Shown here: positions 2,366 through 20,675 of the stretch, piece by piece
Layout of the letters: every line of letters starts with the position of its first letter
Position numbering within the stretch: position 1 is the stretch's first letter
NCBI RefSeq assembly: GCF_023169545.1
Contig: NZ_AP019769.1
Span: forward strand, 540,001-572,000
Direction of reading: 5' to 3'
DNA length: 32,000 nucleotides
Source of the DNA: Nanobdella aerobiophila
GTDB lineage: Archaea > Nanobdellota > Nanobdellia > Nanobdellales > Nanobdellaceae
Position numbers and translations under genes: made by a program
The notes under the pieces: model-generated
Told to the model about the DNA's origin: nothing
Database searches by the model: none
The model's input: only the letters and a program-made list of their open reading frames with translations

Positions 2366-3454
2366 CTATATATTTAAAATATCTATTCCTAAATTAGAAT
2401 CTTTAACCAACCTCCCAGTATCCCACTCTTCTTTCCATTTCGACAATATATATGGACTTCTTACACCAGATATAATTATTGTAGCTTTTATCTTTCCTTT
2501 CATATTTTCATCCATTCTTGCACCTAGTATTGTCAAAGAATCTTCACCTAAATATTTCTTTACATGCTCCGCTACTTCATTTACTTCTTTTAAAGTCATG
2601 TCTGGACCTCCAGTTACATGTACTAATGCACCTGTAGCACCTTCATATGACACATCTAATAATGGTAATTCCAATGCTCTCTTTGCTGCTTCTTCAGCTC
2701 TCTTTTCACCATCTGCTACACCTATACCTACAATAGATGCACCACCACCTATGCCCAATACAGTCTTTACATCAGCGAAGTCCAAATTAATATAAGATGG
2801 AACTGCAATAGTTTCTACTAAACCTTTTATCATTTGACCTACTATGTTATTTGCATATCCAAAAGCCTGTGATACTGGCAGATTTCCTGCATATTGCAAT
2901 ATTTTATTGTTATCTATCAATATTACATTATCTGCATATTTTCTTAACTGTGCTAGACCTTCTTCTGCTTTTTCTCTTCTAACTCCACCTTCAGATGAAA
3001 ATGGTAGTGTTGCTACTGCTACTATTAATGGCACTCCTGCTTCCTTAGCAATTTGTGCGACAACAGGAGCGGAACCTGTTCCTGTTCCTCCACCTAAACC
3101 CAATGTAATCCATACCATATCTGCTCCTTCTAATAATTTTCTTAGATCACCCTGGGATGCTCTTGCTGCTTCTGTTCCTTTAGATGGTAAACCACCTGCA
3201 CCTAATCCCCTAGTTACATCCTTACCCAATAATACTTTTTTATGAGCTTTTACTGATTTTAAATGAGCATAATCCGTATTTGCAGCTATTACTTCTGCAC
3301 CTTTTATATCCATCTTATATAACCAATCTGCTATATTTGAACCTGCTCCTCCTGTACCTACTATTTTTATTGTTGGTATCAATTTAAACTCCTCGCCTTC
3401 TTGTACTCCTATTATTTCTACGTCATCTTCTTTATTAGTATAAAGGTCTGCCAT
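2366..3454 (-). CDS. ftsZ: Cell division GTPase FtsZ
   Basis: Tubulin/FtsZ signature GGGTGTGSAPVVA and N-terminal GTGGAGSN nucleotide-binding loop. 362 aa. Confidence 0.92.
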   Translation of the reverse strand: MADLYTNKEDDVEIIGVQEGEEFKLIPTIKIVGTGGAGSNIADWLYKMDIKGAEVIAANTDYAHLKSVKAHKKVLLGKDVTRGLGAGGLPSKGTEAARASQGDLRKLLEGADMVWITLGLGGGTGTGSAPVVAQIAKEAGVPLIVAVATLPFSSEGGVRREKAEEGLAQLRKYADNVILIDNNKILQYAGNLPVSQAFGYANNIVGQMIKGLVETIAVPSYINLDFADVKTVLGIGGGASIVGIGVADGEKRAEEAAKRALELPLLDVSYEGATGALVHVTGGPDMTLKEVNEVAEHVKKYLGEDSLTILGARMDENMKGKIKATIIISGVRSPYILSKWKEEWDTGRLVKDSNLGIDILNI

Positions 3455-9016: not shown

Positions 9017-9033
9017 AAATTTATAAAAATATT

Positions 9034-9105
9034 GGGCCCGTAGTCTAGCGGTAGGATGTCGGCCTGGCTCGCCGGAGATCCCGGGTTCAAATCCCGGCGG
9101 GTCCA
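9034..9105 (+). tRNA. tRNA-Ala (anticodon GGC)
   Basis: Hand-folded cloverleaf: acceptor GGGCCCG/CGGGUCC with a G3:U70 pair (Ala identity), D arm GUCU-AGCGGUA-GGAU, anticodon arm UCGGC-CUGGCUC-GCCGG, T arm CCGGG-UUCAAAU-CCCGG, discriminator A. No encoded CCA. Position 37 is U, which is unusual. Confidence 0.85.
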
Positions 9106-9121
9106 TAAAGAAAAACTTATA

Positions 9122-9130
9122 ATATATAAA
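9122..9130 (+). promoter_or_regulatory. TATA-like box ATATATAAA upstream of tRNA-Gly
   Basis: Lies at -25 to -17 relative to the mature 5' end (9147). Same 9-mer as upstream of tRNA-Ala. Confidence 0.35.
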
Positions 9131-9146
9131 TTAAAGATATATTTTA

Positions 9147-9217
9147 GCACTCGTCGTCTAGCGGTAGGATGCGGGCCTTCCAAGCCCGCGGCCCGGGTTC
9201 AAATCCCGGCGAGTGCA
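9147..9217 (+). tRNA. tRNA-Gly (anticodon UCC)
   Basis: Cloverleaf: acceptor GCACUCG/CGAGUGC, D arm GUCU-AGCGGUA-GGAU, anticodon arm CGGGC-CUUCCAA-GCCCG, T arm CCGGG-UUCAAAU-CCCGG, discriminator A. No encoded CCA. Confidence 0.9.
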
Positions 9218-9777
9218 CTTTATAAATGATTATCAGATCTTATATACTGAAATAATCTATTTTTACTTGCCATAGTAAGCAATATTATCTAATAAGCTAT
9301 ATATCTATTGTCTTATTTATTATATTACCAAATAAAACATTTATATTGTATCCGTAGAATATTTTATATAAGAAAGAAGTTATTTATAGATAAATAGCTT
9401 AGTATAATCTGGATAGAAACTAAATAATTATATTGATTTCCAAATCTACTTATTATATAATCAATTTTCTTAAATACATATAAATAAGAATTATATTCTG
9501 ATCTAAAAATATATACATTAGGAAAGATTTTTTTAAACATTTATATATAATATTTTTCTAAATTCTAAAGGTATTAGATTATCTTTCTTATTTTTATCAT
9601 TTTATACTATAAATATTATTATTTGATCTACATATTAGATAAATATCTTTTATTCTATAAAGTTATAGATTGGTCAAATCCTCTCTATAAACAATAAAAT
9701 ATATTTACTACTAATTATCAATTATTATTACAAATTTTTATAGAATTTTTTATTAATTCTAAATACTTTATATAAAT

Positions 9778-11076
9778 ATGGATATAATCGTTGGAAGATC
9801 TATTGATGATCTTGAAAAATATAAATATTCTGGATCTATATTTATAGGAAAACAATATATAAAAATGGAAAATGCAACTTCATTATCTAATAATATATAT
9901 CTAGATGTAAATAATCCACATTTAATATTAATTGCCGGTAAGAGAGGACAAGGTAAAAGTTATACACTAGCATCTATATTCGAAAGCTTAGCTACAATGG
10001 AAGAAGATCTATTAAATAATTTCTCAGGCCTCATATTTGATACAATGGGCATATTCTGGACAATGAAATTTCCAAATTATAGAGATGCAGAAGCTTTAGA
10101 AAGGTGGGGTTTAAAACCACAAGCAATAAAAAACTCAAGAATTTTAGTTCCAGAAGGTTTATCGGATAAATATAGAGATATAGATATGCCAATAGATGAT
10201 AGATTCTCTTTAAATCCTTCAGATTTATCTGGTATAGAGTGGGTGCTATCTTTTAATCTAGATCCTTCATCTCAATTATCTTTATATATTCAGAGAATAA
10301 TTAAAAAAATGCAAGAGAATAATAACAGATATACTATAGAAGATATAATTAATTATATAGAAAAATTAAATATTGACAATAGAATAAAAAATAGTATTAT
10401 AACCTACTTTGATTCTGCTAATTCTTGGGGCTTATTTTCAGATAAAGGATATACTACCAAAGATCTTTTGAAACCAGGATATATAAATATTCTAGATATA
10501 TCATTATTTACAGCGATTACAGGAGGATGGTCAATAAAAAATCTCGTAATAGGATTAATTGCAAAAAAAATATTTTATGAAAGACTACTATATAGAAAAA
10601 AAGAAGAATTGGATGAAATATATATTTCAAGAGATATGAATAATAGAGAATTTCCATTAGTATGGCTAGCAATAGATGAGGCACACGAATCTATACCAAA
10701 TGATAGTATAACTCCCGCAACAGAATCATTGATACAGATAATTAGAGAGGGCAGACAACCAGGAATTACATTAGTACTCGCCACCCAACAACCTGGCAAA
10801 ATGCATACAGATGTAATTACACAAAGTGATATTGTAATATCTCATAGAGTTACAGCGGAAAGAGATTTAAATTCTTTAAATGAAATTATGAAAAATTTTT
10901 CCGCCCAGGATATAGACATATATATGAATGAAAATTTACCAAAAAAGAAAGGTGCAGCACTGATATTAGATGACAAATCTGAAAAAATATATGCTATGCA
11001 AATCAAACCTAGAATTTCTTGGCATGGCGGAGCAGATCCTACATTAATAAGAAAAAGATTATGGCTAAATCAATAA
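9778..11076 (+). CDS. HerA/FtsK-clade P-loop ATPase (DUF87-like), no HAS-barrel evident
   Basis: 432 aa. Walker A LILIAGKRGQGKSYTL, Walker B VWLAIDEAHE, and the HerA/FtsK-type LVLATQQPGKMHTDVITQSDIVISHRV segment (ATQRP-like). No NurA-like partner lies nearby. Confidence 0.8.
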   Translation: MDIIVGRSIDDLEKYKYSGSIFIGKQYIKMENATSLSNNIYLDVNNPHLILIAGKRGQGKSYTLASIFESLATMEEDLLNNFSGLIFDTMGIFWTMKFPNYRDAEALERWGLKPQAIKNSRILVPEGLSDKYRDIDMPIDDRFSLNPSDLSGIEWVLSFNLDPSSQLSLYIQRIIKKMQENNNRYTIEDIINYIEKLNIDNRIKNSIITYFDSANSWGLFSDKGYTTKDLLKPGYINILDISLFTAITGGWSIKNLVIGLIAKKIFYERLLYRKKEELDEIYISRDMNNREFPLVWLAIDEAHESIPNDSITPATESLIQIIREGRQPGITLVLATQQPGKMHTDVITQSDIVISHRVTAERDLNSLNEIMKNFSAQDIDIYMNENLPKKKGAALILDDKSEKIYAMQIKPRISWHGGADPTLIRKRLWLNQ

Positions 11077-13139
11077 TAAAGATATTGGAAGGAGCTATAT
11101 CTATAATAATTTTTATATCATTTTTAATATTTTATATACATTTATATTATGCTTATATATATAATAAAATAGAGAACAATCAATTAAACTACGATAATAT
11201 AGAAATTGATAATGTACTAGATAAAATAAGTCAAAATTATTATATATTATCTATAAATAGTATGATACCAGTATCTATGTATTACCAGTGTCAGGCTAAT
11301 TCATCAATATACAATAATTTAATAAATGAAAATGCATATGAAGATTTTTGTACAGCCTTTCCTATATTCTATCCTTTAAATATCTCTTTCTTAACCAATT
11401 ATACGGGTATATTAAACAATACATATGATACTTACCTTGATCCTAACTATGGATTATATTTTTATCTAAATATTAGTAATTTATCTATAGAAAATAATAG
11501 TCAATATATAATATTAAATATTTCAAATCCTTCAAATAATGTATTTAATCAAACAATATTCATAACAAACCCGGATTTATTCTACTGGTTACAAAATAAT
11601 GACAATATAGAACTATATGATATAAATAATAATCAAACCATAAATTTCTGTTACCAAAATGCAGATTTTGTATGCAATATTTCTAATGATCAATCTTTTG
11701 GTATATGGGCTAATATTTATATACCTAATAATAATTACACATTACTAAATATATCAATTACAAACAGCTCTTATAGTTTAGACGGTAGTAATATTTTTCC
11801 TTTCTATGATCATTTTTATTACTTTAATGAAAATCAATTGAGTAAAAACTGGATAATTAATACGCAAATAGAGGTATATTATAATAACCCCGGAGATATA
11901 ATATATCCTAATAATTCAGATAGTTTTACCATATCTTCAAAAAAGTATATAAATCCTGGAAATTACCTCGTTATATTTAATGCTTCATCTTCATCAGAGG
12001 GCAAAATAACTATTGGTAATTGCAATATAAATATACCAAATAATAATAATAATATTTATTTCTACTATTGTAATTTGACAGAAAATTCGAATATAACAAT
12101 CTATAATAATGGAAAATTATATATAGACTATATTATATTAATTAATTACAATAATAAATATACTATAAATAACCTATATGAACCAAATATAACAGAAAGT
12201 TATAACTTTATAATAGGACCAGATATAAATTACAATTCTAATAATAATCTAATATTAAACCAAAATTATATTGCCAATAATTATATATTATACAATAATA
12301 ATAGCAATAGTCTAGGATATATTACAGAAATAATCAACAACTATCCCGAGTACTATAATCCTTTATTTTATTATTTATATACTAATAGTAATTTTCCAAA
12401 TACATATAATATAAATGACTCAGAAGCATTGCTAAGTATATATAATAATTATAATTTATCGATAAATAATGTAATCTTCCCAAATACATATTGGTTTATT
12501 ATAAATACAAAAAAATATTATAACTCTAACAATATGATATATTGGAATACAAATGAAAATAATTTCGGATTTCAATATGGGCATGCAAATTTTTATAATG
12601 AAATATTTTCTTATATTAATTCCTTATTAAATAATTATCTATATTTACCATATGAAAATGGTATAATCTTATATAGTAAAAGCCAAAACTCTACATCTTT
12701 ATTATTTACAAACTATAACCCATACATAAGATATTACCTATATATACAATATAATCTATTTCTAATAAACTACTATTATCTAATGAATTTAAAGTTATTA
12801 AATAATTATTCTTATGAAAATTATTATTTATATTTTTACGATAATCCATATCTAGATATTAATACGGGAGAATATCTATCTTTTTCTACACAGATTCCAA
12901 TAATAGATATAAATTATATAAAACCAATAAAAGCAATAAACTTAAATAATTTGATACAAGAATCGAGTAATTATAATAATATATATTTCTATATTGAAAA
13001 TGATAATATAACGATATATAATGGATATATATATAGCGGTAATATAGTAAACAACTACTTATATTCTAATATATATAATGAGTACATATTTTATAATAAT
13101 ACTTTATATAATGATAAGATTATAATATATATAAAATGA
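11061..13139 (+). CDS. Large N-terminally anchored Asn/Tyr/Ile-rich, sequon-dense surface protein (unknown family)
   Basis: Preferred start is MAKSIIKILEGAISIIIFISFLIFYI (ATG at 11061, 16-nt overlap with the ATPase stop); the track ORF starts at 11019. About 2.1 kb is free of stop codons in extremely AT-rich DNA, where TAA/TAG/TGA should be frequent, which argues for real coding. One N-terminal hydrophobic helix. I count about 25 N-x-S/T sequons and 7 Cys by eye. Confidence 0.6.
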   Translation: MAKSIIKILEGAISIIIFISFLIFYIHLYYAYIYNKIENNQLNYDNIEIDNVLDKISQNYYILSINSMIPVSMYYQCQANSSIYNNLINENAYEDFCTAFPIFYPLNISFLTNYTGILNNTYDTYLDPNYGLYFYLNISNLSIENNSQYIILNISNPSNNVFNQTIFITNPDLFYWLQNNDNIELYDINNNQTINFCYQNADFVCNISNDQSFGIWANIYIPNNNYTLLNISITNSSYSLDGSNIFPFYDHFYYFNENQLSKNWIINTQIEVYYNNPGDIIYPNNSDSFTISSKKYINPGNYLVIFNASSSSEGKITIGNCNINIPNNNNNIYFYYCNLTENSNITIYNNGKLYIDYIILINYNNKYTINNLYEPNITESYNFIIGPDINYNSNNNLILNQNYIANNYILYNNNSNSLGYITEIINNYPEYYNPLFYYLYTNSNFPNTYNINDSEALLSIYNNYNLSINNVIFPNTYWFIINTKKYYNSNNMIYWNTNENNFGFQYGHANFYNEIFSYINSLLNNYLYLPYENGIILYSKSQNSTSLLFTNYNPYIRYYLYIQYNLFLINYYYLMNLKLLNNYSYENYYLYFYDNPYLDINTGEYLSFSTQIPIIDINYIKPIKAINLNNLIQESSNYNNIYFYIENDNITIYNGYIYSGNIVNNYLYSNIYNEYIFYNNTLYNDKIIIYIK

Positions 13140-13456
13140 GATCTTGGATTATATTAGTAGAACTAGCTTTCTCAGTAATTATATTATCATTATTTTTATT
13201 ATATAATTATTATTATAAAAATAATAATAATTATATAATAAACTATCAATATTATAATACAATATATCTAAACAATTCGTGTAATAATAATCAACTAATA
13301 TATGAAATAATAAATATAACAAATAATAATGCAACAATATGTTATTATGGTAATATAGTAAGCTCAGAATATATACATAATCTAGAACCAGTATATGAAA
13401 TTTTATACCCTGGCCAAAATAATTATAATCCTTATATATTAATAATATTTTCATGA
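13136..13456 (+). CDS. Small pilin-like/anchored protein, N-sequon-bearing
   Basis: 106 aa. ATGA overlap with the upstream gene. N-terminus MRSWIILVELAFSVIILSLFLLY (short basic head, Glu, hydrophobic helix). 3 sequons and 2 Cys. Confidence 0.5.
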   Translation: MRSWIILVELAFSVIILSLFLLYNYYYKNNNNYIINYQYYNTIYLNNSCNNNQLIYEIINITNNNATICYYGNIVSSEYIHNLEPVYEILYPGQNNYNPYILIIFS

Positions 13457-13893
13457 GAAATCAATATATATTACTAGCAACTATGTTTATAACAGTTTTA
13501 TTATCTCTTCTAATTATATATAATAATAAGCCTATTAACTATATAAATCCAGAATTAATAGGAAGTAATTTCCAAAAAAGTATATTATATATATATCAAA
13601 ATTATGGATATAATTATATAGGAAACTATACTAACCTATTTGTAAATTATACAAATACCATAAATTATAATTTTTCTTATATATGCATATCTTCATATAA
13701 TCTATCTTTAGAATCATGTAATGGAAATAATATTAATTGCTGCTATTATTTTAGTGGGTATATAAATATAAATTCAACAATATTAAAGTATTGCGATAAT
13801 AATTTCACCCTATATAACCCACCAGATTGGATATGTTTCTGTTATAATGTAAACAATAGTATAGAACAATATTCAAATTTCTTCTGCACTTAA
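13453..13893 (+). CDS. Small Cys-rich, sequon-rich anchored/secreted protein
   Basis: 146 aa. ATGA overlap with the upstream gene. N-terminus MRNQYILLATMFITVLLSLLIIY. 8 Cys and 7 N-x-S/T sequons. Confidence 0.5.
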   Translation: MRNQYILLATMFITVLLSLLIIYNNKPINYINPELIGSNFQKSILYIYQNYGYNYIGNYTNLFVNYTNTINYNFSYICISSYNLSLESCNGNNINCCYYFSGYININSTILKYCDNNFTLYNPPDWICFCYNVNNSIEQYSNFFCT

Positions 13894-14360
13894 CATCTAT
13901 CAATAAAGAATCCATAAACAGTCTTATTTAATAACAAGCAAATATTATTTCCAGATATAGAATATTCATTTCCAGATATATTAAATGGTAAGGTATTAAT
14001 ACTAAAATTATATAAAAAATCATTTATGGAGATATTGGTTACATTTAAATTTATATATGATGGTACATATATTGAATAATTTATATTAGAATAATAAATG
14101 GCATTTATATATCCTGGATATATATTTATTATTAGATTAGAAGGTATCTGCTCTTGAAACTCATATGTACATGAATAGCAAGAGCCAATCTGATATATTT
14201 CATAATTTAAATTTGATAATAAACTAACCGTATATCTTAAGTTTATCTCAGATTGATTATTGGCTATAGATAAATGAACATAGTATAGAACAAATGACAA
14301 TATTGCTATAGCAAAAGAAGTATATATTAAAAATTCTACCCATAAACTTACACCCTTCAT
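13890..14360 (-). CDS. Small type IV pilin-like protein (class III signal-like N-terminus), sequon-rich
   Basis: 156 aa. N-terminus MKG-VSLWVEFLIYTSFAIAILSFVLYY (basic residue, Gly, then a hydrophobic helix with an early Glu). 7 sequons and 4 Cys. Its start overlaps the rps19e stop by 4 nt. Confidence 0.5.
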   Translation of the reverse strand: MKGVSLWVEFLIYTSFAIAILSFVLYYVHLSIANNQSEINLRYTVSLLSNLNYEIYQIGSCYSCTYEFQEQIPSNLIINIYPGYINAIYYSNINYSIYVPSYINLNVTNISINDFLYNFSINTLPFNISGNEYSISGNNICLLLNKTVYGFFIDRC

Positions 14361-14869
14361 AAATTACCTATATATTCTACTAAATTTTTATTATCTTTAG
14401 TTAAATCTTTATATATTTCATTCGCCAATTTATCTAATATACTTTTTCCTTCATTAGTAATTACTCTTCCTTTATTTTTATTATCTAGAATTTTTGTAAC
14501 TAAACCTGCAGATTCTAATTCTTGTAATATTGATCTCACCATCTTTCCATATCCTCTTCTAAACTTACCAGGTTCCATGCCTCTTTTTCTTAATCCACCA
14601 TAATATTTTCTTAATCTAGACACACCAATCGGTCCTTTAATATATAATCTCCTCAATATAGAAGCAGCTCTATAATACCACCATCCAGGCTCATTGTTAT
14701 ACTCCTCAGCAGGTATATCTGGATTTCTCTCTCTATCAGGACCTGTCTTTACAAAATTTGCCCAATATGGTGGTTTTATCTTATCTCTATAATTTTCGAA
14801 TAAATATTTTGCTAATCTTTTATTGAATATATTTCCAGGTATATCAAGCACATTTACCATATATTGCAA
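14357..14869 (-). CDS. rps19e: 30S ribosomal protein S19e (eS19)
   Basis: WYYRAASILRRLYIKGPIGVSRLRKYYGG and the C-terminal LESAGLV pattern are typical of eS19. The likely start is the internal MVNVLDIP (14860). Confidence 0.9.
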   Translation of the reverse strand: MQYMVNVLDIPGNIFNKRLAKYLFENYRDKIKPPYWANFVKTGPDRERNPDIPAEEYNNEPGWWYYRAASILRRLYIKGPIGVSRLRKYYGGLRKRGMEPGKFRRGYGKMVRSILQELESAGLVTKILDNKNKGRVITNEGKSILDKLANEIYKDLTKDNKNLVEYIGNL

Positions 14870-15452: not shown

Positions 15453-15906
15453 TTCTAAAAATATAGATATAAATAATATAGAGTATGATCTTCCCAAGAT
15501 AGGTAAATCTATATTATATGTATTCAAGTGTAATGATTGTAATTATAAGAGTTCTGAAATAATCCCACTAACTGAAAAAGATCCTGTAAGAATAGAGATA
15601 AAAGTGGATAATAAAGATAAATTTAAGAAAATAATACTAAGATCCCCATATGCAATAATTAATTTGAAAGAAATTGAAATGGATATATATCCTGGAATAG
15701 ATTCAAAATTTGAAATAAAGGCTGTAGACGATTTTATAAATAGTGTAAAAGATAAGTTGGAAGAAATAAAGATATTATATCATGGAGAAGAATATAATAA
15801 AGTTATAGAAAAGATAAAATATTTAGAAGAGGTCTTGGAAAATAAAAAAGAATTAACAATAATAATAGATGACGAGAAAGGCTATTCTACTATATATAAT
15901 TACTGA
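15418..15906 (+). CDS. ZPR1-type zinc-finger protein
   Basis: 162 aa. CPICNS...(~30 aa)...FKCNDCNYKSSEI zinc ribbon, followed by a beta-rich module (VRIEIKV...ILRSPYAIINLKEIEMDIYPG), as in the archaeal ZPR1 (COG1779) family. Confidence 0.6.
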   Translation: MIILTDSCPICNSKNIDINNIEYDLPKIGKSILYVFKCNDCNYKSSEIIPLTEKDPVRIEIKVDNKDKFKKIILRSPYAIINLKEIEMDIYPGIDSKFEIKAVDDFINSVKDKLEEIKILYHGEEYNKVIEKIKYLEEVLENKKELTIIIDDEKGYSTIYNY

Positions 15907-16295
15907 GCATTCTCTTCTCCCTTTATATCTTCTACTGCAGACATTTGGTGTCCTCTCCATATCTTCACATATGCTGGTGTCGCTATAATCCAATCCTTAT
16001 TTACTGCTACAATATCCCCGCCAACGGCATCTACTACAGATTTTATTCTTGATACTACTCTTTTTGCTTCAATTAAATCTTTACTTGCATTTAGATTACT
16101 CAAATCTACAAATACTATAAAATTCCTCTCCCTTAATGAATCTACAACTGCCTTTACCTCTGAAGGATCTTTTAATCTAAATACTCTGACATATATCTTT
16201 ACTTCTTCTGCTTTTTGAGTTGGAACTACTTCTACATATTGATCAGTATTCTCTTCCTTCTTACCTTTAAATATATTTTTAAATGAGATCGCCAT
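15900..16295 (-). CDS. sepF: Cell division protein SepF homologue (FtsZ anchor)
   Basis: 131 aa. The C-terminal ~90 aa fit the SepF/DUF552 pattern (YVRVFRLKDPSEVKAVVDSLRERNFIVFVDLSNL...AKRVVSRIKSVVDAVGGDIVAVNKDWIIATPAYVKI). Confidence 0.65.
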   Translation of the reverse strand: MAISFKNIFKGKKEENTDQYVEVVPTQKAEEVKIYVRVFRLKDPSEVKAVVDSLRERNFIVFVDLSNLNASKDLIEAKRVVSRIKSVVDAVGGDIVAVNKDWIIATPAYVKIWRGHQMSAVEDIKGEENAQ

Positions 16296-19283: not shown

Positions 19284-20675
19284 ATGTCAATATTTGCAGA
19301 TAAATTAATTAAATATTATAATGAAAATAAGGAAATAGTTGATGATATTATAACTATATCACAAAATAGAGAAGTAGGATATTTATTATCTAATGGTTCA
19401 TTTGGTTATAGACCGTCCAAGATCGATTCGAAAGAGGATATAATAAACTTTATCAAAAAAGGTGCAATTTCATTTCATATTTCAATAGAAAGATGGGTTG
19501 ATTTAGATATACTTAAGGAAAAATCCTCAAAAAGAGAAGTAGATGATTATAGACTTGGTTGGGATTTTATAATTGATATAGATTCTAAATCCTTAGACCT
19601 ATCAAAGGTAGCAGCAAAAATAATAGTAGATTACATAAACGAAAAAAATATTTCTCCATTTTACATAAAATATTCTGGAGGAAAAGGATTTCACATAGCA
19701 ATACCATGGGAAATATTTCCAAAAACGTTGAATATAGAAAAAAAAGGAGAGATAATTGAAGAAGAAACTAGAAAACTATTTCCTGATCTAGCAAGATATA
19801 TCGCACTATATATAGCAAATGAAGTAAAAGATAAATTATCAAAAACAATAACAATAAAATTTAGTGAAGAGGAGCTAAAAAATTTTGGAATTGATAATAT
19901 GGATAATTTTGATCCATATAAGATAGTAGAAATAGATACAATATTAATTTCTTCAAGACATCTGTTTAGATCTATATACTCTATAAATGAAAAGACGGGT
20001 AATTTATCTATACCAATAAAATATAATTATATAAGTAAATTAGATCCAAAGGATGCTAATATAGATAATTATTATTATGAAAATGTACCATATTTAACAG
20101 AAGAATTAAAAAAAGAAGAAAATAAGAACTTTAAGGATCTTATCCATGCATCATTACTATTCAAAGCAAATAATGAGATAAATATAAACCAAATGATAAG
20201 ATCTGCCCATGAATACAAAGACAATAGAGAAAATAAAGAGATTGAAAAGGATATAAAGTATATAAAAAACAAAAATTTAAATATAACCGAAGAATTATTC
20301 CCTCCATGTATAAAAAATATATTAAATAATAAGGAAACTGAAGATGGTAGAAAAAGAGCCGTATTTATATTAATTAATTTTTTAGCTAATATAGGCTGGG
20401 ACTGGGATAAAATAGAAAAATATGTAAATGATTGGAACCGAAACCTTGCTGATCCTCTAAAAGATAGATATATTGAATACCAAATCAATTGGCATAAAAA
20501 GATATTCAAAGAAAATAAAAAATATTTAACTCCAAATTGTAGTAATGAAATATATTATAAAGATATTGGAATATGCACACCAGATGATATATGTAAACTT
20601 ATAAAGAATCCAATATCTTACCCAATTAAAAAAATTAAGAATTCAAAATATTCTCAGGATTCTCAAAATAATTGA
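19284..20675 (+). CDS. DNA primase, single-chain PriS catalytic domain fused to a PriL-CTD-like four-Cys domain
   Basis: 463 aa. AEP motifs FIIDIDSK (DxD), YSGGKGFHIAIPW and ISSRHLFRSIYSINEKTG. The C-terminal ~130 aa begin at FPPCIKNIL and carry four Cys in total (PPC, PNC, GIC, DIC), resembling the Fe-S domain of the primase large subunit. Confidence 0.75.
   Translation: MSIFADKLIKYYNENKEIVDDIITISQNREVGYLLSNGSFGYRPSKIDSKEDIINFIKKGAISFHISIERWVDLDILKEKSSKREVDDYRLGWDFIIDIDSKSLDLSKVAAKIIVDYINEKNISPFYIKYSGGKGFHIAIPWEIFPKTLNIEKKGEIIEEETRKLFPDLARYIALYIANEVKDKLSKTITIKFSEEELKNFGIDNMDNFDPYKIVEIDTILISSRHLFRSIYSINEKTGNLSIPIKYNYISKLDPKDANIDNYYYENVPYLTEELKKEENKNFKDLIHASLLFKANNEININQMIRSAHEYKDNRENKEIEKDIKYIKNKNLNITEELFPPCIKNILNNKETEDGRKRAVFILINFLANIGWDWDKIEKYVNDWNRNLADPLKDRYIEYQINWHKKIFKENKKYLTPNCSNEIYYKDIGICTPDDICKLIKNPISYPIKKIKNSKYSQDSQNN

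What the first reader, a model, noticed from the sequence alone, without database searches (positions are those of the whole stretch)
9778..14360. HerA/FtsK-clade ATPase coupled to anchored, glycan-sequon-rich surface proteins: candidate undescribed envelope or host-contact apparatus
Four + strand genes are chained by overlapping stop/start codons: a 16-nt overlap at 11061-11076, then ATGA at 13136 and at 13453. The first is a 432-aa P-loop ATPase with HerA/FtsK-type motifs (GKRGQGKS, LAIDEAHE, LATQQPGK). The next three each begin with a short basic head and one hydrophobic helix, followed by Asn/Tyr/Ile-rich ectodomain-like sequence dense in N-x-S/T sequons and Cys. A fifth similar gene (13890-14360) converges on the cluster. 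In the HerA/FtsK/VirB4 clade, ATPases linked to membrane partners typically power translocation of DNA or protein across envelopes; examples are VirB4/TraG and the archaeal Ced/Ted DNA-import ATPases. A repair-type HerA normally sits beside NurA, Mre11 and Rad50, and none of these is present. No PilB/PilC-type type IV pilus genes are in the window either, so a HerA-type motor with pilin-like substrates would be an unusual combination. In a reduced, probably host-dependent archaeon, this is a plausible attachment, filament or uptake machine. The block also follows two tRNA genes and a 560-nt spacer and looks even more AT-rich than its surroundings. A remnant of an integrated virus or plasmid, with a packaging-type ATPase and glycosylated structural proteins, is therefore a serious alternative.
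Basis: partly seen in the sequence, partly recalled or inferred. Interest (0 to 1): 0.85.

Follow-up and report, generated by a model that had tools for sequence, protein, structure and literature searches.

The report
HerA-like ATPase beside pilus-type surface genes
In the tiny symbiotic archaeon Nanobdella aerobiophila, a widely conserved HerA-like ATPase of unknown role sits next to lineage-specific genes that look like a type IV pilus adhesin and small pilin-like partners; these are most likely two separate units rather than one new machine, but the surface genes are good candidates for host attachment.

Summary
In detail: all five genes, their overlaps, the ATPase motifs, the N-terminal helices, the sequon/Cys richness and the low GC are as described. 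The window is Nanobdella aerobiophila.

The ATPase has a HerA fold. It belongs to a highly conserved family found across Nanobdellota (at least 586 species genomes). About 75 other loci show no membrane or pilin partner, and none of about 90 shows NurA, Mre11 or Rad50.

ORF2 carries a DUF2341 domain (hhalign 98.8%, E 1e-16) and lectin-like β-domains. DUF2341 marks predicted tip adhesins of archaeal type IV pili. ORF3-5 are small, Cys-rich, N-terminally anchored proteins restricted to this family.

In one relative (L090) the same block abuts an ArlI-like ATPase and a split ArlJ-like platform. Two others (L008, L088) have archaellin-type genes next to it. A canonical type IV motor is therefore the likelier assembler.

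Overlapping codons are the norm here (17 of 30 same-strand pairs), and ORF5 overlaps ribosomal S19e. The mobile-element reading is refuted by conserved synteny and the absence of att repeats.

One point stays unexplained: the ATPase→DUF2341 pair survives four different flank contexts, so a lineage-specific coupling cannot be excluded.

The parts
9033..9218 (+). tRNA-Ala(GGC) 9033-9106 and tRNA-Gly(UCC) 9147-9218. This is a conserved upstream landmark, not an att site.
   Evidence: ARAGORN and Rfam. The same tRNA pair lies upstream of the ATPase in 7 of 7 Nanopusillaceae loci. The only repeat involving them is between the two tRNAs themselves (D3).
9219..9777 (.). AT-rich 559-nt spacer with a TATA-like sequence just before the ATPase ATG. 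No gene or RNA was detected in it.
   Evidence: Sequence read; no Rfam hit. An apparent similarity to the NMNAT-like gene of relatives came from the antisense tRNA and is an artefact.
9778..11076 (+). A 432-aa soluble HerA-clade P-loop ATPase (probably MJ1_0636). Walker A is at aa 54-61, Walker B at 297-304, REGRQPG at 323 and ATQQPG at 335. It has a short N-terminal β-domain and a helical insertion.
   Evidence: Pfam DUF87 at 40.5 bits, above the 23.2 cut-off. AF2 model with pLDDT 87.5. Foldseek ranks HerA first. 100% identical to an N. aerobiophila protein. No TM segment.
11061..13139 (+). ORF2, 692 aa: an N-terminal pilin-like helix (aa 1-56 in the model), a DUF2341 domain (aa ~150-256, nt ~11508-11828), lectin/CBM-like β-sandwich domains and a C-terminal β-domain. 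Predicted glycosylated surface adhesin.
   Evidence: hhalign against DUF2341 segments gives 98.8%, E 1.3e-16. The family profile hits DUF2341 proteins. Homologue P0158 passes the Pfam DUF2341 cut-off. AF2 model pLDDT 72, with Foldseek CBM29/CBM61-like hits. 26 sequons.
13136..13456 (+). ORF3, 106 aa: MR[S/G]W..LxE N-terminal helix with invariant E9, and 2 invariant Cys. Small pilin-like or anchored extracytoplasmic protein.
   Evidence: Alignment of 8 orthologues. Single N-terminal hydrophobic segment. No Pfam or NCBIfam hit.
13453..13893 (+). ORF4, 146 aa: M[K/R]xQYIL N-terminal helix without the conserved Glu, and 8 invariant Cys. It has an orthologue next to T2SSF/T2SSE genes in L090.
   Evidence: Alignment. 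hhalign to the L090 130-aa protein gives 90.8%, E 1.2e-6.
13890..14360 (-). ORF5 = MJ1_0640, 156 aa: M[K/R]G[V/I]SLWVEF N-terminal helix with invariant E9, and 4 invariant Cys. It converges on ORF4, and its start overlaps the stop of the S19e gene.
   Evidence: Named MJ1_0640, with only 5 homologues.
14357..14869 (-). Ribosomal protein S19e. It is context only: it shows that ORF5 is chained to an unrelated housekeeping gene.
   Evidence: Pfam Ribosomal_S19e in the gene tables. 4-nt overlap with ORF5.

Best explanation
The region holds two functionally separable units that happen to be co-transcribed in a very compact genome.

Unit 1 is a soluble ATPase of the HerA clade. It belongs to a short (about 430-450 aa) subfamily conserved across Nanobdellota. 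By homology it should form a ring and use ATP (Walker A Lys, Walker B Asp-Glu, REGRQPG arginine) to translocate nucleic acid. Its cellular role is unknown and is probably housekeeping DNA metabolism; it is not linked to NurA, Mre11 or Rad50.

Unit 2 (ORF2-5) is a lineage-specific accessory set of a type IV filament (pilus or archaellum-like). ORF2 is a large glycosylated protein with a pilin-like N-terminal helix, a DUF2341 domain and lectin-like β-sandwiches, and is a predicted tip or decoration adhesin. ORF3-5 are small, disulfide-rich proteins anchored by a pilin-like N-terminal helix, with a conserved Glu in ORF2, ORF3 and ORF5. They would act as minor-pilin-like subunits.

These proteins would be inserted in the membrane, possibly trimmed by a prepilin peptidase, and assembled by an ArlI/ArlJ-type (T2SSE/T2SSF) motor encoded elsewhere in this genome.

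Shown here: fold and family of the ATPase, the DUF2341 homology, the extracytoplasmic signatures, phyletic distribution and synteny. Inferred: filament incorporation, signal cleavage, the adhesin role and the ATPase substrate.
For: ATPase:
- HerA is the best fold match (E 5e-21, TMq 0.69). A profile search of PDB sequences ranks HerAs at 3e-15 to 4e-10, against FtsK and B204 at about 1e-3.
- The family is present in at least 586 species genomes, with 60% mean column identity.
- Neighbours are variable. T2SSE lies within 6 kb in only 2-3 of 85 loci, and DUF2341 only in the Nanopusillaceae-like loci.

ORF2-5:
- DUF2341 homology.
- Makarova 2016 (PMC4858521) places DUF2341 large proteins plus at least 5 minor pilins in methanococcal type IV pilus loci and notes that cognate pilins of nanoarchaea were unidentified.
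- In L090 the block abuts ArlI-like and split ArlJ-like genes.
- L008 has ArlF/G-like genes downstream and L088 has archaellin-type and DUF2341 genes upstream.
- Composition, sequon and Cys signatures fit extracytoplasmic proteins.
- Each has a single N-terminal helix.

Overlaps are uninformative in this genome.
Against: - The ATPase→ORF2 pair, with overlapping codons, persists through four different flank arrangements (Nanopusillaceae, L008, L090, L093). This is the classical signature of functional linkage.
- The -1 residue of the putative class III signal varies (G/S/N/T/D/I), and no pilin Pfam or NCBIfam model hits ORF2-5.
- ORF3-5 show no detectable homology to archaellins or to each other beyond the helix.
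- No structure was obtained for ORF3-5.
- The T4P link to a core motor rests on one locus (L090).
- The rest of the N. aerobiophila genome could not be searched for a second T2SSE/T2SSF or a prepilin peptidase.
Confidence: 0.5

Rival explanations
1. One reading: the HerA-like ATPase is a dedicated cytoplasmic motor of an envelope apparatus built from ORF2-5 (assembly, extraction or substrate translocation). On this view a housekeeping ATPase was recruited in the Nanobdellales.
For: The ATPase→ORF2 pair with overlapping codons is conserved in at least 11 genomes and four flank contexts. No T2SSE/T2SSF lies in the 32-kb window. The protein composition of the Nanobdella/YN1 attachment organelle is unknown (PMC11104419, PMC11420986).
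Against: The ATPase is phylum-wide without such partners. It has no membrane segment. The cytoplasmic part of ORF2-5 would be only about 3-10 residues. L090 carries a canonical ArlI/ArlJ-type motor beside the same genes. Overlaps are the genomic norm. As far as I know, no HerA-clade ATPase assembles pilins (own knowledge).
Confidence: 0.17
2. DNA or nucleotide-scavenging uptake machine: type IV pilus-like proteins capture host or environmental DNA, and the HerA-like ring pulls it into the cell. This would be functionally analogous to Ced/CedB or to Com pili plus ComFA.
For: The gene pair is conserved (as above). T4P genes, including a DUF2341 gene in the epd locus, were hit in the M. maripaludis transformation screen, and the archaeal DNA importer is unknown (PMC10133366). 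The ATPase has a HerA (DNA-translocase) fold.
Against: No channel-type polytopic membrane partner (CedA-, ComEC- or TctA-like) lies next to the ATPase in any of about 90 loci. No HerA-type gene was hit in the M. maripaludis screen. The distribution of the ATPase is independent of T4P genes.
Confidence: 0.1
3. ORF2-5 are ordinary N-terminally anchored (signal-anchor) envelope glycoproteins or S-layer-associated lectins, not filament subunits. Their adjacency to T4P genes in relatives would then be coincidental.
For: The -1 residue is variable and no pilin model hits. ORF3-5 have no homology to archaellins. Kato et al. list many lectin- or Ig-like surface proteins in this genome.
Against: DUF2341 is typically found in T4P loci and in proteins with pilin N-termini, for example P0173 with an N_methyl motif. 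A Glu is conserved in the N-terminal helix of ORF2, ORF3 and ORF5. L093 reads MKRA|ISHIEW with Glu at +5. T4P or archaellin genes lie beside the block in three relatives.
Confidence: 0.18
4. Remnant of an integrated virus or plasmid, with a packaging-type ATPase and glycosylated structural proteins.
For: tRNA genes lie upstream, GC is low, and there are weak hits to STIV B204 and PHROG terminase.
Against: The block and both flanking landmarks are syntenic in 7-8 genomes. There is no att-like repeat or integrase. The ATPase is a phylum-wide core gene. Viral packaging ATPases match much worse than cellular HerA. Amino-acid composition explains the low GC.
Confidence: 0.02

Closest known systems
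Epd-type archaeal type IV pilus loci of Methanococci/Methanobacteria (ATPase, two TadC, DUF2341 large proteins, at least 5 minor pilins; Makarova et al. 2016, PMC4858521)
   Same: A large DUF2341 protein with a pilin-like N-terminus is followed by several small proteins with an N-terminal hydrophobic helix and conserved Cys. In relative L090 these genes lie next to a T2SSE ATPase and two T2SSF-type proteins.
   Different: The small proteins have no detectable homology to Epd pilins or any pilin Pfam family. The -1 residue of the signal is not consistently Gly or Ala. In N. aerobiophila no T2SSE/T2SSF lies within 32 kb. A HerA-like ATPase directly precedes the adhesin gene.
Bacterial PilY1 with minor pilins (FimU-PilVWX), and the T2SS GspH-I-J-K tip complex
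   Same: One large adhesin-type protein plus three or four small pilin-like proteins. A conserved Glu sits near the start of the hydrophobic helix in most subunits but not in one (ORF4, compare GspK).
   Different: There is no sequence homology. The Glu is at about +6 rather than +5 in Nanopusillaceae. Tip-complex formation is untested.
HerA of the archaeal HerA-NurA-Mre11-Rad50 end-resection system
   Same: Best fold and sequence-profile match. It shares the DUF87 core, the helical insertion and the EGRxxG/TQxP motifs.
   Different: It is about 70-150 aa shorter, with only about 45 residues before Walker A and so no full HAS barrel. It is never adjacent to NurA, Mre11 or Rad50 in about 90 loci. 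It scores 30 bits against the 970-bit equivalog cut-off.
Ced/Ted archaeal DNA-import systems (CedB/TedB HerA/VirB4-like ATPase with CedA membrane proteins and VirB2-like pilins)
   Same: A HerA-superfamily ATPase is encoded beside small membrane-anchored proteins.
   Different: The partners here have a single N-terminal helix with large ectodomains. They are not polytopic CedA or hairpin VirB2-like pilins. No VirB4- or TrwB-type match was seen.
ArlF/ArlG (archaellum stator/minor archaellin-like proteins)
   Same: Small proteins with an uncleaved or short-leader N-terminal helix and a β-rich ectodomain. ArlF/G-like genes occupy the equivalent position in L008.
   Different: hhalign finds no similarity between ORF3-5 and the PF01917-type proteins.

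Membership tests
HerA/DUF87 superfamily (Pfam PF01935) | DUF87 P-loop core scoring above the Pfam gathering cut-off | tested here: met
   40.5 bits against a 23.2 cut-off, aa 39-244.
HerA (DSB-repair helicase, NCBIfam NF040819 / NF040937) | Equivalog-level sequence score | tested here: not met
   30.5 and 29.2 bits against cut-offs of 970 and 800.
HerA (DSB-repair helicase) | Overall fold: RecA-like core with a helical insertion domain | tested here: met
   Foldseek matches 9x1m (E 5e-21, TMq 0.69) and 4d2i (E 2e-18). The model has helices 152-215 and 250-282.
HerA (DSB-repair helicase) | N-terminal HAS β-barrel domain of about 100 aa | tested here: inconclusive
   Only about 45 residues (three strands and one helix) precede Walker A at aa 54. 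The protein is 432 aa against 500-590 aa for solved HerAs.
HerA (DSB-repair helicase) | Operon or neighbourhood with NurA, Mre11 and Rad50 | tested here: not met
   None appears among neighbours in 85 loci by clustering. None appears in the Pfam-annotated gene tables. The rest of the genome was not searchable.
VirB4 / CedB / TedB conjugation-type ATPases | Best sequence or fold match to VirB4/TrwB-type ATPases, plus adjacent polytopic CedA/VirB6-like and VirB2-like proteins | tested here: not met
   No VirB4 or TrwB match appears among the PDB sequence or fold hits. TrwB Pfam scores E 0.09. The neighbours have a single N-terminal helix.
FtsK/SpoIIIE | FtsK_SpoIIIE domain above cut-off, N-terminal membrane anchor, γ domain | tested here: not met
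   19.4 bits against a cut-off of 24. No TM segment. PDB FtsK scores E about 1e-3.
A32-like / STIV B204 viral packaging ATPases | Closest match to packaging ATPases, in a context of capsid genes | tested here: not met
   B204 scores E 5e-4 to 8e-3. The best BFVD hits are phage HerA-like proteins (3e-16), and A32-like ATPases reach only about 1e-5. There are no viral genes in the window.
DUF2341 (PF10102) large proteins, predicted type IV pilus adhesins | Presence of the DUF2341 domain | tested here: met
   hhalign of the ORF2 family against DUF2341 segments gives 98.8%, E 1.3e-16, over aa 150-256. Homologue P0158 passes the Pfam cut-off at 24.5 against 23.4 bits. The window protein alone gives no Pfam hit.
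Type IV pilin-like proteins (class III signal peptide) | Short basic leader followed by a hydrophobic helix of about 20 aa at the extreme N-terminus | tested here: met
   All of ORF2-5 and their orthologues show this pattern.
Type IV pilin-like proteins (class III signal peptide) | Gly or Ala at -1 of the prepilin peptidase site, or a hit to pilin N-terminal models | tested here: inconclusive
   The -1 candidate varies (G/S/N/T/D/I). ORF2 also fits E[G/A]|[VIL] at aa 10-12, and L093 reads KRA|IS. No Pfam or NCBIfam pilin model hits.
Type IV pilin-like proteins (class III signal peptide) | Genomic association with T2SSE/T2SSF (PilB/ArlI, TadC/ArlJ) assembly genes | tested here: inconclusive
   Met in L090, with ArlI-like (407 bits) and split ArlJ-like genes. 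L008 and L088 have archaellin-type neighbours. Not met within this 32-kb window.
Type IV pilin-like proteins (class III signal peptide) | Cleavage by an A24 prepilin peptidase and incorporation into a filament | not testable with these tools
   This needs N-terminal proteomics or filament preparations. The genome outside the window could not be searched.
Integrated mobile element | Flanking att repeats, an integrase, and absence from close relatives | tested here: not met
   No att-like repeat. The block is present and syntenic in all relatives examined.

The most novel reading that the evidence does not exclude
In the Nanobdellales, a housekeeping HerA-like ring ATPase has been recruited as the cytoplasmic motor of a type IV pilus-derived host-contact or uptake device. 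The DUF2341 adhesin and small pilin-like proteins would contact the host, and the ATPase would drive translocation of DNA or another polymer. This would give part of the molecular identity of the Nanobdella/YN1 attachment organelle or of the unidentified 15-nm appendage.
Probability: 0.12. Interest if true: 0.85.

Novelty: new member of a known kind. Interest (0 to 1): 0.42.

Why it matters
Nanobdella and its relatives live by attaching to other archaea. The proteins of their attachment organelle, of the decorations on their archaella and of a second surface filament are all unknown. An earlier census could not find the pilins that go with nanoarchaeal type IV pilus ATPases.

ORF2-5 (probably MJ1_0637 to MJ1_0640) are unannotated, and no paper in the searchable library mentions them. 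They now have a concrete, testable assignment: a DUF2341 lectin-like adhesin with three small pilin-like partners.

Separately, the ATPase defines a short HerA-like subfamily that is nearly universal and strongly conserved in Nanobdellota yet lacks the NurA/Mre11/Rad50 context. This makes it a candidate for an unrecognised core function in these reduced genomes.

Tried and rejected
- **Overlap as evidence of coupling:** rejected. In this window 17 of 30 same-strand pairs overlap, including S19e→ORF5.
- **Mobile element:** rejected on synteny, tRNA conservation and repeat analysis.
- **Spacer 9219-9777 as a decayed NMNAT-like gene:** the tblastn hit disappeared once the antisense tRNA was excluded.
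- **Homology among ORF3, ORF4 and ORF5, and to archaellin-type (PF01917) proteins of relatives:** only the N-terminal helix aligns. ORF3 against the L090 92-aa protein is not significant.
- **Defence-system HerA:** PADLOC gives only weak, partial HerA hits and mad8 at 68 bits, with no defence partners nearby.
- **Conserved operon partner of the ATPase across DPANN:** none was found, only loose synteny with DnaG, RFC, FEN1, PolB, HtpX and TYW2.
- **Metagenome scan for more L090-like contexts:** found only one 2-kb contig.
- **Locus-tag and expression data:** the supplementary tables of Kato et al. are not held.

Full report
**Identity of the window and check of the observation**

The ATPase is 100% identical to a protein of Nanobdella aerobiophila, a cultured ectosymbiotic Nanobdellota archaeon with a 669-kb genome. 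ORF5 is MJ1_0640.

All five ORFs are at the stated coordinates. An independent gene call on a Logan assembly gives the same genes and lengths. The 16-nt overlap and the two 4-nt overlaps, the three ATPase motifs (aa 54, 297, 334) and the two tRNAs followed by a 559-nt spacer are all confirmed.

ORF2-5 each have exactly one hydrophobic segment, at the N-terminus. The ATPase has none.

ORF2-5 carry the signature of extracytoplasmic glycoproteins:
- Asn 13-21% and Tyr 11-16%.
- Charged residues 6-10%, against 24-35% in cytosolic proteins of the same window.
- 2.8-4.8 N-x-S/T sequons per 100 aa, against 0-1.1 in the cytosolic proteins, and above composition-matched shuffles for ORF2, ORF4 and ORF5.
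- All Cys lie after the helix and are invariant across eight orthologue sets: 2, 8 and 4 in ORF3, ORF4 and ORF5.

This composition explains the GC dip to 0.17-0.21.

One element of the observation carries no weight. Overlapping stop and start codons are the norm here: 17 of 30 same-strand neighbour pairs overlap, 11 of them by 4 nt. ORF5 itself overlaps the stop codon of ribosomal protein S19e.

**The ATPase**

Pfam places it in DUF87, the HerA central domain (40.5 bits). FtsK, Zot and TrwB score only below their thresholds. No NCBIfam equivalog is approached.

An AF2 model (pLDDT 87.5) matches HerA best:
- T. kodakarensis HerA from the HerA-NurA complex: E 5e-21, TMq 0.69.
- S. solfataricus HerA: E 2e-18.
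- Anti-phage HerAs follow.

A profile search of PDB sequences gives the same ranking, with FtsK and STIV B204 about ten orders of magnitude weaker and no VirB4 or TrwB. Against viral models, phage HerA-like proteins lead and A32-like packaging ATPases are distant.

The protein is shorter than solved HerAs. Only about 45 residues precede Walker A, so a full HAS barrel is doubtful.

The family is large and strongly conserved. More than 4,300 homologues were found, with about 45-50% identity to Woese-, Pace- and Parvarchaeota-labelled genomes. Mean column identity is 60% across 14 diverse members. Relatives occur in at least 586 species-level genomes.

**Genomic context of the ATPase across the phylum**

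I called genes in 85 loci and clustered the neighbours. Outside the Nanopusillaceae-like group there is no recurrent membrane, pilin or nuclease partner. The commonest neighbours are TYW2/Trm5, HtpX, the RFC large subunit, DnaG and FEN1, mostly on the other strand.

A few small genes recur downstream:
- An unannotated protein of about 100 aa, in 11 loci.
- A SWIM zinc finger protein, in 2 loci.

DUF2341 genes occur only in the Nanopusillaceae-like loci. FlaFind-like N-termini lie within three genes of the ATPase in only 4 of the other roughly 75 loci. A T2SSE gene lies within 6 kb in only 2-3 of 85 loci. NurA, Mre11 and Rad50 were never seen.

The ATPase therefore has a function that does not depend on ORF2-5.

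**The downstream proteins**

ORF2 has only 40 homologues, all from Nanopusillus, Nanobsidianus, Nanoclepta, YN1 or unnamed Nanopusillaceae. ORF5 has five.

A profile of the ORF2 family was searched against 1.84 billion representatives. It found full-length relatives only in this group, but profile positions 154-270 matched many other proteins. These turned out to carry Pfam DUF2341 at exactly that place. They include Ignicoccus proteins named DUF2341 and a 3,098-aa protein with a bacterial pilin N-methylation motif.

Several further results support the assignment:
- Profile-profile comparison gives 98.8% probability, E 1.3e-16, for ORF2 residues 150-256.
- A full-length family member passes the Pfam cut-off directly.
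- The AF2 model of ORF2 (pLDDT 72; residues 1-390 and 590-692 are confident) shows a 55-residue N-terminal helix followed by β-domains. Its only fold matches are weak (E about 1e-4): carbohydrate-binding or lectin-like jelly rolls.

According to Makarova et al. 2016, DUF2341 large proteins sit in methanococcal type IV pilus loci. That paper predicts them to be tip adhesins by analogy with PilY1, accompanied by five or more minor pilins. [quoted passage not shown] A DUF2341 gene in the epd pilus locus was hit in a transformation screen of M. maripaludis.

**Context in close relatives**

The five-gene block is conserved in eight Nanopusillaceae genomes. So are the upstream tRNA-Ala/tRNA-Gly pair and the downstream S19e-L37ae-RpoP-ZPR1-SepF array.

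Three deeper relatives, with ATPase identity of about 63-64%, keep the ATPase→ORF2 pair but in other surroundings:
- **L090:** HtpX, ATPase, ORF2 homologue, a 92-aa protein and an ORF4 orthologue (hhalign 90.8%). These are followed by a split ArlJ/TadC-like platform (284 + 496 aa) and an ArlI/FlaI-like ATPase (407 bits).
- **L008:** the pair is followed by ArlF/G-like archaellin-fold genes.
- **L093:** the partner begins MKRA|ISHIEW, a textbook class III-like start with Glu at +5, and has a near-canonical DUF2341.

In L088, itself one of the eight Nanopusillaceae genomes above and the most divergent of them, an archaellin-type gene and a second DUF2341 gene lie just upstream.

These neighbours tie ORF2-4 to type IV filament biology. 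They also show that a conventional T2SSE/T2SSF motor is the natural assembler.

**What remains uncertain**

The -1 position of the putative prepilin cleavage site is not consistently Gly or Ala. No pilin model hits ORF2-5. ORF3-5 share nothing detectable with each other or with archaellins beyond the helix. I could not model their structures. I also could not search the rest of the genome for a prepilin peptidase or a second T2SSE/T2SSF.

From the literature, the genome has ArlBHIJ and aglB/D/E, and 735 of 736 CDS are expressed. The cells carry three structures of unknown composition: archaella with unexplained thorns and a corrugated base, a second 15-nm appendage, and an attachment organelle. 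ORF2-5 are not among the surface proteins discussed there, and no held paper names them.

It survives at least four different flank arrangements, although it is confined to one clade.

**Verdict**

The mobile-element alternative is refuted. The 'HerA motor with pilin-like substrates' reading is possible but is the minority reading.

The best-supported reading is two units. One is a Nanobdellota-wide short HerA-like ATPase of unknown, probably nucleic-acid-related, role. The other is a lineage-specific type IV filament adhesin and minor-pilin-like module.

This is a new member of known kinds. Its practical value is as a candidate for host-contact proteins.

Noticed in passing
window 9033-9777; L003, L005, L006, L086-L089 upstream of the ATPase: The tRNA-Ala/tRNA-Gly pair is conserved upstream of the ATPase in 7 of 7 Nanopusillaceae loci. 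The DNA between and after the two tRNAs carries different genes in each genome: EamA-like, GT1 with DUF5752, prenyltransferase, or an NMNAT-like cytidylyltransferase. It looks like a local insertion or rearrangement hot spot.
   Followed up: partly
window 2366-3454 (-) and 15900-16295 (-): The cell-division genes FtsZ and SepF lie on either side of the block. DNA ligase (646-2331) and a fused PriS-PriL primase (19284-20675) are also nearby. The surroundings are purely housekeeping.
   Followed up: no
whole window: The genome is extremely compact: 17 of 30 same-strand neighbour gene pairs overlap, 11 of them by the 4-nt ATGA type, including functionally unrelated pairs.
   Followed up: yes
L015, L019, L021, L022, L027, L028, L040, L055, L066, L067, L072 (gene just downstream of the ATPase): A protein of about 100 aa (MAFSKSFPK...ALFEKRASH...KEKFD) with no Pfam match recurs on the same strand 1-3 genes after the ATPase in 11 Woesearchaeota-type loci. 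It may be a genuine partner of the ATPase in those lineages.
   Followed up: partly
L001 7326-7631 and L009 (gene +1): A small SWIM zinc-finger protein of about 99 aa directly follows, and overlaps, the ATPase in two distant DPANN genomes.
   Followed up: partly
L040 (gene +1): A tandem paralogue of the ATPase (445 aa) lies immediately downstream of it in one marine Nanoarchaeota MAG.
   Followed up: no
P0178, P0195 (Ignicoccus hospitalis WP_012122952; I. pacificus UXD21754): Two of the few source-named non-family hits of the ORF2 profile (E 7e-11 and 4e-4) are DUF2341 proteins of Ignicoccus. This genus includes the host of Nanoarchaeum equitans. It may be coincidence or shared hot-spring ancestry; transfer was not tested.
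   Followed up: no
L090 10285-12655 (-): The ArlJ/TadC-like platform protein is split into two genes. The 496-aa product matches the N-terminal half of ArlJ and the 284-aa product matches the C-terminal half. They lie next to an ArlI-like ATPase, and no ArlH is adjacent.
   Followed up: partly
window 13179-13454 (-): A 91-aa antisense ORF lies inside ORF3. It is most likely a by-product of the AT-rich, stop-poor complementary strand: the sense frame is the one conserved in orthologues.
   Followed up: partly
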